Virus record (IMG/VR): IMGVR_UViG_3300032093_000021
Location: 76,165 to 140,164 of that record
Reading direction: 5' to 3' (one strand)
DNA: 64,000 bases
From: a virus
The number at the start of each line of letters is the position of its first letter. Positions within the stretch are counted from its first letter, which is position 1. Under the pieces are notes generated by a model. The model was not told where the DNA came from. It saw nothing but the letters and a program-made list of their open reading frames with translations, and did no database searches. This document shows, in pieces, positions 60,135-60,246 of this stretch. The translations under genes were made by a program, and so were the position numbers.

Positions 60135-60246
60135 GATGATTTAAGGGAGTGCTAAACTAACAAGTTCCCCCCATAAGGGATGGACAAACTAATCAATTAA
60201 CCCCATAAGGGATCATCAGATTAACAAAGCGCCCCCATAAATCATC
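60135..60246 (-). ncRNA. Putative structured RNA: 3 x 32-nt repeat closed by terminal inverted repeat
   Basis: TAAGGGA at 60142/60174/60206 and CCCATAA at 60170/60202/60234; GATGATTTA (60135-60143) pairs with TAAATCATC (60238-60246). Confidence 0.6.

What the first reader, a model, noticed from the sequence alone, without database searches (positions are those of the whole stretch)
60135..60246. Pseudo-three-fold symmetric element: three 32-nt units with two conserved and two variable blocks
Seen (plus strand): TAAGGGA-gtgct-AAACTAACAA-gttcc-CCCCA / TAAGGGA-tggac-AAACTAATCA-attaa-CCCCA / TAAGGGA-tcatc-AGATTAACAA-agcgc-CCCCA, with an exact 32-nt period, flanked by GATGATTTA...TAAATCATC. The 5-nt variable blocks partly complement each other around the circle (gtgct with agcgc, gttcc with tggac, attaa with tcatc via G-U on the minus strand). 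This gives a three-way junction with three equivalent arms, two capped by CCC-UUAU-GGG, joined by three similar 10-nt U-rich linkers. Inference: C3 pseudo-symmetry is what a ligand of a homotrimer such as a phage fibre would need. The repeat/variable/loop-repeat/variable layout also loosely recalls dual-spacer TIGR arrays, but the variable blocks here are shorter and complement each other.
Basis: partly seen in the sequence, partly recalled or inferred. Interest (0 to 1): 0.85.

Follow-up and report, generated by a model that had tools for sequence, protein, structure and literature searches.

The report
Threefold-symmetric RNA junction after phage fibre genes
A 112-base spacer between two tail-region genes of an uncultured large phage folds into a conserved three-armed RNA built from three near-copies of one module; it belongs to a previously undescribed RNA family that follows one family of fibre-like genes, and its function is still unknown.

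Summary
Window 60135-60246 has three 32-nt units closed by a 9-bp inverted repeat. They lie in the 139-nt gap between two minus-strand genes.

Seven distinct orthologous copies all keep three units. Their 5-nt "variable" blocks differ in almost every copy but stay complementary around the circle: 88% of cells are paired, 15 pairs carry double changes, 0 of 500 shuffles match this, and slid controls reach at most 57%. G-U pairs (32, against 7 A-C) point to the sense (window minus) strand, so RNA.

A covariance model built from these copies also finds the neighbouring element at 61150-61305 and elements in three more distant phages. This is one RNA family with no Rfam match. It sits directly after the stop codon of a P0002-family gene in 17 of 18 loci.

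The three junction linkers keep an invariant UA and evolve in concert within each element.

The mechanism is inferred, not shown. My best guess is a docking platform for a threefold-symmetric partner, possibly the upstream-encoded protein, which is modelled as an N-terminal homotrimer. An RNase III processing or stability site is nearly as likely. A TIGR-type guide array, a neutral repeat and a mobile element are disfavoured.

The parts
60238..60246 (-). P0 5' strand (GAUGAUUUA), the outer closing helix
   Evidence: Invariant in 6 of 7 orthologues. L074 carries a compensatory U-A to G-C change.
60228..60236 (-). P1 5' strand: conserved GGGG plus a 5-nt variable block
   Evidence: Pairs with 60145-60153. 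Four to five pairs show double changes.
60218..60227 (-). Linker J1 (10 nt, U-rich, central UA)
   Evidence: Unpaired in the consensus fold. The UA is invariant.
60196..60217 (-). Arm P2: 9-bp hairpin capped by UUAU
   Evidence: Five pairs with double changes.
60186..60195 (-). Linker J2 (10 nt, central UA)
60164..60185 (-). Arm P3: 9-bp hairpin capped by UUAU
   Evidence: Five pairs with double changes.
60154..60163 (-). Linker J3 (10 nt, central UA)
60145..60153 (-). P1 3' strand (variable block plus UCCC)
60135..60143 (-). P0 3' strand (UAAAUCAUC)
60124..60134 (.). 11-nt direct repeat TTAATTTTTTT, copy 1. On the sense strand it is part of the A-rich leader of the downstream gene.
   Evidence: family D2.
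60247..60257 (.). 11-nt direct repeat, copy 2. It overlaps the stop codon of P0002.
60256..61137 (-). P0002, 293 aa from its ATG: a fibre-like protein with an N-terminal trimer module, a Gly linker, a beta-sandwich, a basic loop and a basic tail. The element follows its stop codon after 9 nt.
61150..61305 (-). Sister element e2 of the same RNA family, lying after paralog A. It has the same junction with longer arm tips.
   Evidence: Covariance model R1 scores it at 34 bits, E 4e-5. MFE -71.7 kcal/mol, z -7. Covariation is shown.
61315..62160 (-). Paralog A (281 aa), 56% identical to P0002
59691..60116 (-). P0001 (141 aa), the downstream gene. Its start codon lies 18 nt after the element.

Best explanation
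Shown here: the element is a cis-encoded structured RNA on the sense (window minus) strand of a polycistronic late mRNA. It folds into a three-way junction. A closing helix of about 19 bp (P0 plus P1, with one conserved mismatch) and two 9-bp hairpins are joined by three 9-11-nt U-rich single strands, each with an invariant central UA. It belongs to a previously uncatalogued RNA family that sits 0-12 nt after the stop codon of P0002-family genes, one copy per gene, in large and mid-sized phages with Bacteroidota-like (inferred) A-rich leaders. Inferred: the three like linkers are three equivalent docking sites for a threefold-symmetric partner. The most economical candidate is the homotrimeric, basic-loop protein translated from the cistron that ends just upstream. 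Binding near its own 3' end could gather three chains made from one mRNA, which would keep the two paralogs, with their near-identical N-terminal trimer modules, from mixing. It could also feed back on expression of the adjacent cistrons. I put the structure and family membership at about 0.9. The confidence given here (0.34) is for the trimer-docking mechanism.
For: Structure. 88-89% of cells are paired, 14-15 pairs carry changes on both sides, 0 of 500 shuffles match, and the signal peaks sharply against slid partners. RNAalifold finds the same fold independently.
Strand. There are 32 G-U cells against 7 A-C cells, and the sense strand scores higher with the covariance model.
Family. Model R1 hits e2 in 7 loci, and also L018, L080 and, weakly, L079. 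There is no Rfam match.
Link to the upstream gene. Every P0002-family gene examined is followed by such an element, except the one in L017. The downstream genes vary: 141 aa, 179 aa, another paralog, or fibres of 921+ and 1007 aa. Paralog A has no element upstream of it.
Symmetry. All copies have three modules. Linkers are 58% identical within an element and 38% between elements. Orthologous linker positions are no more alike than non-orthologous ones (permutation p 5e-5). Other subtypes repeat this pattern: CUAAUUGG-type linkers in L080 and AUAAG-type in L018.
Partner. Three copies of P0002 are modelled as a trimer through residues 1-45, with a score of 0.59 against a best control of 0.01. 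That mark was reached by 20 of 30 proteins solved as same-chain pairs and by 1 of 23 proteins solved as single chains. The runs share at least 49% of their contacts, and the pLDDT is at least 68. A basic loop and a basic C-terminal tail are conserved family-wide.
Precedent. Covarying repeat motifs in pseudo-symmetric tigRNA are read as binding a symmetric protein dimer (PMC12045711).
Against: Nothing shows RNA binding by P0002 or by any other protein. Its fold is a generic beta-sandwich, and basic loops are common in virion proteins.
Concerted evolution of the modules can come from duplication or gene conversion alone. L062 hairpins 2 and 3 differ by a single compensatory pair. L074 e2 arms share a run of about 24 identical nt.
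The closing helix is always the long arm, so the RNA is not truly C3-symmetric.
The modelled trimer interface is N-terminal, far from the basic loop.
Confidence: 0.34

Rival explanations
1. An RNase III-type processing and stability element. The long closing helix between two cistrons is cut, which uncouples the decay and translation of the upstream and downstream messages. The junction either stabilises the cut ends or is released as a small RNA of about 100 nt.
For: The closing helix is the one constant long duplex: 19 bp in e1, 18-20 bp in e2, 26 bp in L018, 27 bp in L080 and about 22 bp in L075. The element lies inside an operon. A terminator at 62930-62967 and an ATATTTAT motif at 62914-62921 lie upstream, and there is no U-tract after the element. 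Closing the helix brings the stop codon and the next start codon to within about 30 nt of each other. T7-type intercistronic RNase III sites are an established precedent (my own knowledge).
Against: It does not explain why exactly three modules, an invariant UA in each linker, and like linkers are kept in every subtype. A plain long hairpin would do the job. No cleavage data exist.
Confidence: 0.3
2. A self-contained RNA fold, riboswitch-like, exonuclease-blocking, or a ribosome standby platform. The three UA linkers would form the functional core and control the cistron that starts 18 nt downstream.
For: Across subtypes, conservation is concentrated in the junction strands while the arm tips vary freely; e2 carries 19-24-nt insertions at its hairpin tips. 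The element is close to an A-rich leader.
Against: The downstream gene varies, whereas the upstream gene family is constant. No alternative pairing that would hide the start region was found. No candidate ligand is known.
Confidence: 0.12
3. A DNA-level element: protein-binding iterons on one helical face, a recombination hot spot at a fibre-cassette boundary, or a small MITE-like insertion.
For: The 32-bp period is about three helical turns. An exact 11-nt direct repeat abuts both ends of the inverted repeat. The termini are far more conserved than the flanking genes. The number of paralogs varies between phages (L061 has three).
Against: Compensatory changes and the strong G-U asymmetry point to a single-stranded, sense-strand molecule. 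The 140-kb record holds only two copies, both in the same context. Scans of the collections with the terminal motifs found no dispersed copies. The flanking repeat is not exact in the relatives.
Confidence: 0.08
4. A processed repeat array: a TIGR- or CRISPR-like guide array, or a type III antitoxin-like or decoy RNA that is cut into 32-nt units.
For: Tandem units of about 32 nt, each with a hairpin and a single-stranded UA that could be a cleavage site. Phages are known to carry such arrays (PMC12045711).
Against: The unit number is fixed at three and the array is enclosed by a closing helix. The variable blocks are 5 nt and pair with each other, so they do not behave as spacers. The linkers within an array are alike rather than diverse. 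The record has no Nop-domain protein. The downstream gene encodes a fibre domain, not a nuclease.
Confidence: 0.04
5. A neutral tandem triplication with no function.
For: Modules do duplicate or convert within elements.
Against: The architecture is kept while the neighbouring protein falls to 38-39% identity. There are 15 covarying pairs. The closing helix and the UA motifs are invariant.
Confidence: 0.02

Closest known systems
T7-type intercistronic RNase III processing sites
   Same: A structured element of about 20 bp of duplex between cistrons of a phage polycistronic mRNA, on the sense strand and not followed by a U-tract.
   Different: Those sites are single irregular hairpins. This element encloses a three-way junction made of three repeated modules with conserved single-stranded linkers. 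Cleavage has not been tested.
TIGR arrays and tigRNA (PMC12045711)
   Same: Short tandem units carried by phages, with alternating conserved and variable blocks. The RNA is pseudo-symmetric, and its repeated motifs change together, as expected for a symmetric protein partner.
   Different: TIGR arrays have 5-15 units, each with two 8-12-nt spacers that target DNA, and lie next to a Nop-domain Tas protein. They have no closing helix. Here there are always three units, the variable blocks form stems, and no Nop protein was found.
phi29 packaging RNA (pRNA) three-way junction
   Same: A phage-encoded RNA built around a three-way junction that acts with a symmetric protein assembly of the virion (my own knowledge).
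   Different: pRNA is a separate transcript at the genome end and oligomerises through loop-loop contacts. It is not an internal triplication and is not attached to a fibre gene. No sequence or model match was found.
Type III toxin-antitoxin RNA (ToxI)
   Same: Tandem repeats of about 36 nt. After processing, they form a threefold-symmetric RNA-protein assembly (my own knowledge).
   Different: ToxI repeats are near-identical, are not enclosed in a junction, and precede an endoribonuclease gene. None of these features is seen here.
Orphan structured RNA motifs found by comparative genomics (Rfam 'motif' families)
   Same: A conserved intergenic RNA supported by covariation, with a fixed genomic context and no known function.
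   Different: None of the 4227 Rfam families matches. As far as I could find, the internal threefold repeat with concerted evolution has not been described.

Membership tests
TIGR array | An adjacent Tas protein with a Nop domain | tested here: not met
   PF01798 finds nothing in the 140-kb record, while the control genomes rang. The neighbouring genes have no such domain. The record is only 47% complete.
TIGR array | Many units (usually 5-15), each with two 8-12-nt variable spacers | tested here: not met
   All 7 e1 copies and all other subtypes have three modules. The variable blocks are 5 nt and pair with each other.
TIGR array | Processing into unit-length RNAs of about 36 nt | not testable with these tools
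Any Rfam 15 family | A score at or above the gathering threshold | tested here: not met
   No hit in the whole window. Within 59900-60500 the best E-value is 1.1, and the scores are far below the thresholds.
Intrinsic terminator | A GC-rich hairpin followed by a U-tract on the transcribed strand | tested here: not met
   The sense strand is followed by an A-run. True terminators exist elsewhere in the phage.
RNase III processing site | About two turns of near-continuous duplex within a transcript | tested here: met
   The closing helix is 18-27 bp in all subtypes.
RNase III processing site | Cleavage by RNase III | not testable with these tools
   This needs an enzyme assay or RNA-end mapping.
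MITE / REP-like dispersed repeat | Many copies at unrelated sites | tested here: not met
   There are two copies in 140 kb, both after P0002-family genes. The scans of public collections found no further copies.
Type III antitoxin RNA (ToxI-like) | Repeats directly upstream of a ToxN-type endoribonuclease gene | tested here: inconclusive
   The downstream P0001 matches only fibre C-terminal domains. The ToxN profile search found nothing, but its controls did not ring either.
New family defined here (pseudo-threefold junction after P0002-family genes) | A three-way junction with a long closing helix, three linkers each carrying UA, and a position just after the stop codon of a P0002-family gene | tested here: met

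The most novel reading that the evidence does not exclude
The element is the RNA half of a phage ribonucleoprotein. Each fibre-like paralog carries, at the 3' end of its own cistron, a pseudo-threefold RNA whose three linkers seat the three subunits of that paralog's trimer. In this way an mRNA-borne scaffold would enforce homotrimer assembly, or autoregulation, of near-identical paralogs. This would be a natural RNA whose internal symmetry is matched to a C3 protein, and a new role for RNA in virion assembly.
Probability: 0.25. Interest if true: 0.9.

Novelty: new variant of a known kind. Interest (0 to 1): 0.72.

Why it matters
Natural RNAs built as an internal threefold repeat around a junction are, to my knowledge, not described. 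Here the fold is backed by compensatory changes, the copy number is fixed, and the three single-stranded linkers change together. That pattern is expected when an RNA must match a symmetric partner, or when its own core is symmetric.

The family is tied to one family of trimer-forming fibre-like genes across divergent phages. This gives a concrete and cheap experiment: a 112-nt RNA plus one 293-aa protein. At the least, the work adds a well-supported new structured RNA family from uncultured phages. At the most, it points to an RNA-assisted step in tail-fibre assembly or to a new kind of intercistronic control in hosts that lack Shine-Dalgarno-based initiation.

Tried and rejected
- **Rfam.** The search at the gathering threshold and the permissive search found nothing.
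- **tRNA/tmRNA scan.** Nothing found.
- **BLAST against the phage collection.** No match.
- **Pattern scans of the collections.** The scan of viral contigs for three TAAGGGA cores returned 40 unrelated tandem repeats. The scans of viral and metagenome contigs for the 19-nt invariant 5' end returned only chance matches.
- **Relatives found through P0003 and P0001.** These share the downstream genes but lack the P0002-family gene and the element, so they give no 'empty site' test.
- **Within-unit hairpin model.** Rejected.
- **Palindromic linker dimerisation.** Considered by hand and dropped, because the L063 linkers are not self-complementary.
- **Hammerhead.** A CUGAUGA in the window's J1/P2 junction recalled a hammerhead core, but it lies in a variable block, there is no GAAA, and Rfam does not match it.
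- **Recoding or ribosome bypass.** Rejected: further in-frame stops follow, and P0001 has its own conserved start.
- **Covariance model on whole related records.** The search through the genome search returned nothing even for the record known to hold a 51-bit hit, so that negative result is uninformative.
- **P0002 fold searches.** Only generic beta-sandwich matches.
- **Scan of bacterial genomes for P0002 relatives.** None found, so there is no host assignment.
- **ToxN profile search.** Uninformative, because the controls were silent.

Full report
**Where the element lies.** The window is the last 64 kb of a 140-kb IMG/VR virus record that CheckV estimates to be 47% complete, so it is a fragment of a large phage. 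Almost all genes run on the minus strand. The finding occupies the 139-nt gap (60117-60255) between two minus-strand genes.
- Upstream is P0002 (60256-61137 from its ATG, 293 aa, no Pfam or PHROG family).
- Downstream is P0001 (59691-60116, 141 aa, with a weak tail-fibre match).
- Next come a virion structural protein (phrog_1645), a DUF1353 chaperone-like protein and a glycosyltransferase cluster.
- An intrinsic terminator (62930-62967) lies about 2.7 kb upstream. It is followed by an ATATTTAT motif (62914-62921) that recurs just upstream of many start codons. No terminator follows the element.
- The element therefore sits inside a polycistronic message read from the minus strand. This is an inference from sequence.

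**The observation.** It is correct.
- There are three 32-nt units at an exact 32-nt period, 66-72% identical, enclosed by a 9-bp inverted repeat that extends to 19 nt at 84% complementarity.
- Both strands fold well beyond shuffled controls. The minus strand is the stronger: -44.6 kcal/mol (z -5.05) against -35.5 (z -4.7).
- No Rfam family matches at the gathering threshold anywhere in the window, or at E up to 10 around the element.

**Relatives.**
- Searches through the downstream proteins found phages with different fibre genes and no such spacer.
- A search with P0002 gave a graded series of orthologues at 97, 80, 78, 68, 64 and 64% identity.
- Their contigs all carry a 127-139-nt gap after the gene. 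A further one (L074) carries both paralogs.
- In the aligned gaps every copy has three modules.
- These features are invariant or nearly so: the outer helix strands, the GGGG and (U/A)CC(C/U) blocks, the loop, and a central UA in each linker.

**Covariation.**
- 88-89% of cells form standard pairs, and 14-15 of 36 pairs carry changes on both sides.
- None of 500 column shuffles reaches any of the five measures.
- Sliding the 3' partners by one to three columns drops pairing to 37-57% and the covariation score from 0.30-0.33 to 0.10 or less.
- RNAalifold predicts the same junction on its own.
- The rival scheme, in which each unit folds on itself around its linker, is no better than its shuffles in the variable blocks.
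- L074 even shows a compensatory U-A to G-C change in the otherwise invariant outer helix.
- L062 hairpins 2 and 3 differ only by one compensatory U-A to C-G pair.

The three-way junction is therefore real.

**Strand and molecule.** Within the paired cells there are 32 G-U pairs on the sense strand. Only 7 A-C mismatches would become G-U on the other strand. One of the G-U pairs is conserved in every arm. This favours a single-stranded sense-strand molecule, which means RNA.

**A family, not a single locus.**
- P0002 has a paralog directly upstream (61315-62160, 56% identity). It too is followed by a multibranch element with a long closing helix (61150-61305; -71.7 kcal/mol, z -7).
- The two gene ends and the first 13 nt of the two elements are alignable.
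- A covariance model built only from the seven e1 copies (R1) matches this second element and its orthologues end to end at 26-51 bits.
- R1 also matches the spacers after P0002 homologues of only 38-39% identity in two other phages: L018/L082 at 51 bits and L080 at 53 bits. It matches L079 weakly at 19 bits. Sense-strand scores always exceed antisense scores.
- In these matches the model's three linkers and three helices are all aligned. The e2 type differs by insertions of 19-24 nt at the hairpin tips.
- An independent alignment of the seven e2 copies gives an 18-bp closing helix with nine covarying pairs and, again, an invariant UA in each linker.
- The own record holds just these two copies.
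- One homologue (L017/L081) has only a 53-nt unstructured gap.

**What the element is attached to.** The upstream gene is always a member of the P0002 family. The downstream gene varies: P0001, a 179-aa protein, a third paralog, or long fibres of 921+ and 1007 aa (the last with a PTL_trimer domain). Paralog A has no such element in front of it (11-nt gap). The association is therefore with the 3' end of P0002-family cistrons.

**Threefold character.**
- Beyond the fixed number of modules, the three linkers of one element resemble each other more than they resemble linkers of orthologous elements: 58% against 38% identity at the seven positions flanking the UA.
- The same linker position in two elements is no more alike than different positions (0.381 against 0.380; permutation p 5e-5).
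- Other subtypes repeat the pattern with different motifs: CUAAUUGG-like in L080, AUAAG-like in L018 and GAUAAUUUG-like in the L063 e2 copy.

This concerted change has two possible causes that I cannot separate.
- One is turnover of modules by duplication or conversion. There is direct evidence for it: near-identical arms in L062, L080 and the L074 e2 copy.
- The other is selection for three like sites.

Either way the count of three is held.

**The neighbouring protein.**
- P0002 has no informative fold match. Its model is an N-terminal strand module, a Gly linker and a beta-sandwich (pLDDT 76).
- Three copies are modelled as a trimer through residues 1-45, with a score of 0.59 against 0.01 for the best of three controls.
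- That mark was reached by 20 of 30 proteins solved as same-chain pairs and by 1 of 23 proteins solved as single chains. The runs agree in at least 49% of their contacts, and the pLDDT is at least 68.
- The calibration used two copies and a different kind of alignment, so this supports a homotrimer but does not show it.
- A strongly basic loop and a basic C-terminal tail are conserved across the family. That is compatible with nucleic-acid binding but is not evidence for it.

**Mechanism.** The structure, the strand, the family and the genomic coupling are shown. The function is inferred.
- **Docking platform (0.34).** I rank first a platform for a threefold-symmetric partner, most simply the trimer encoded just upstream. 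This is the only reading that uses the fixed three modules, the like linkers with their invariant UA, and the tie to a trimer-forming gene family. There is a precedent: covarying motifs in pseudo-symmetric tigRNA are read as matching a symmetric protein dimer (PMC12045711).
- **RNase III-type processing or stability site (0.30).** This is nearly as likely. The one feature that never shortens is a closing duplex of 18-27 bp between two cistrons.
- **Self-contained junction fold controlling the downstream start (0.12).**
- **DNA-level element (0.08).** The exact 11-nt direct repeat at both ends is a point in its favour, but the repeat is not exact in the relatives.
- **Processed guide or antitoxin-like array (0.04).**
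- **Neutral repeat (0.02).**

**Comparison with known systems.**
- It is not a TIGR array. TIGR arrays have 5-15 units with two 8-12-nt spacers each and lie next to a Nop-domain protein. Here the units number three, the variable blocks are stems, and no Nop domain is found.
- It is not an intrinsic terminator on the transcribed strand, nor a dispersed repeat.
- It resembles T7-type intercistronic RNase III sites in position and duplex length.
- It resembles the phi29 pRNA in pairing a junction RNA with a symmetric virion assembly. Both comparisons rest on my own knowledge, and neither is a family membership.
- Literature searches for a threefold-symmetric junction RNA in phage fibre regions found nothing.

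**Verdict.** The observation and the proposed fold are confirmed and extended to a new, covariation-supported RNA family. The proposed ligand remains a hypothesis, but a cheap test of it is available.

Noticed in passing
window 61150-61305 (-): Sister element e2 after paralog A. It has the same three-way junction, with extra GC-rich hairpins (including a GAAA tetraloop) at the arm tips. Its closing helix is 20 bp. MFE -71.7 kcal/mol, z -7.
   Followed up: partly
window 60124-60134 and 60247-60257: An exact 11-nt direct repeat, TTAATTTTTTT, abuts both ends of the inverted repeat. It looks like a target-site duplication, but it is only approximate in the orthologues.
   Followed up: partly
window, e.g. 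62914-62921, 50949-50956, 49860-49867, 39179-39186, 36585-36592, 30785-30792 (all -); 40981-40988, 42594-42601 (+): The motif ATATTTAT lies in sense orientation within about 35 nt of a start codon at 12 of its 19 occurrences. It is a candidate phage promoter or initiation-region motif.
   Followed up: partly
window 33131-33212 (-) and 62930-62967 (-): Canonical intrinsic terminators (a GC-rich hairpin plus a U-run) after the 1112-aa sheath-like gene and after the DUF5122 gene. This shows that the phage uses ordinary terminators on this strand.
   Followed up: yes
window 59691-60116 (-); L011:1111-3285: Residues 48-141 of P0001 are 62% identical to the C-terminus of 724-aa fibre proteins in related large phages. 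P0001 is therefore a short fibre that carries only the shared distal domain.
   Followed up: partly
window 60256-60330 and 61315-61390 (-): The last ~25 nt of coding sequence of the two paralogs (the NHMNHKHV tail) are 24 of 25 identical at the DNA level, although the proteins are only 56% identical overall. This suggests local conversion, or a constraint that reaches into the coding region.
   Followed up: no
L020:8076-8215; L030:5815-5886; L033:627-701; L035:2580-2832: Unrelated viral contigs carry tandem arrays of 33-35-nt units, each holding a TAAGGGA...TCCCTTA hairpin. They turned up by chance in the pattern scan, and their nature is unknown.
   Followed up: no
L061:213-3055: One relative carries three tandem P0002-family paralogs separated by e2- and e1-type elements. 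The gene-plus-element unit therefore expands as a cassette.
   Followed up: partly
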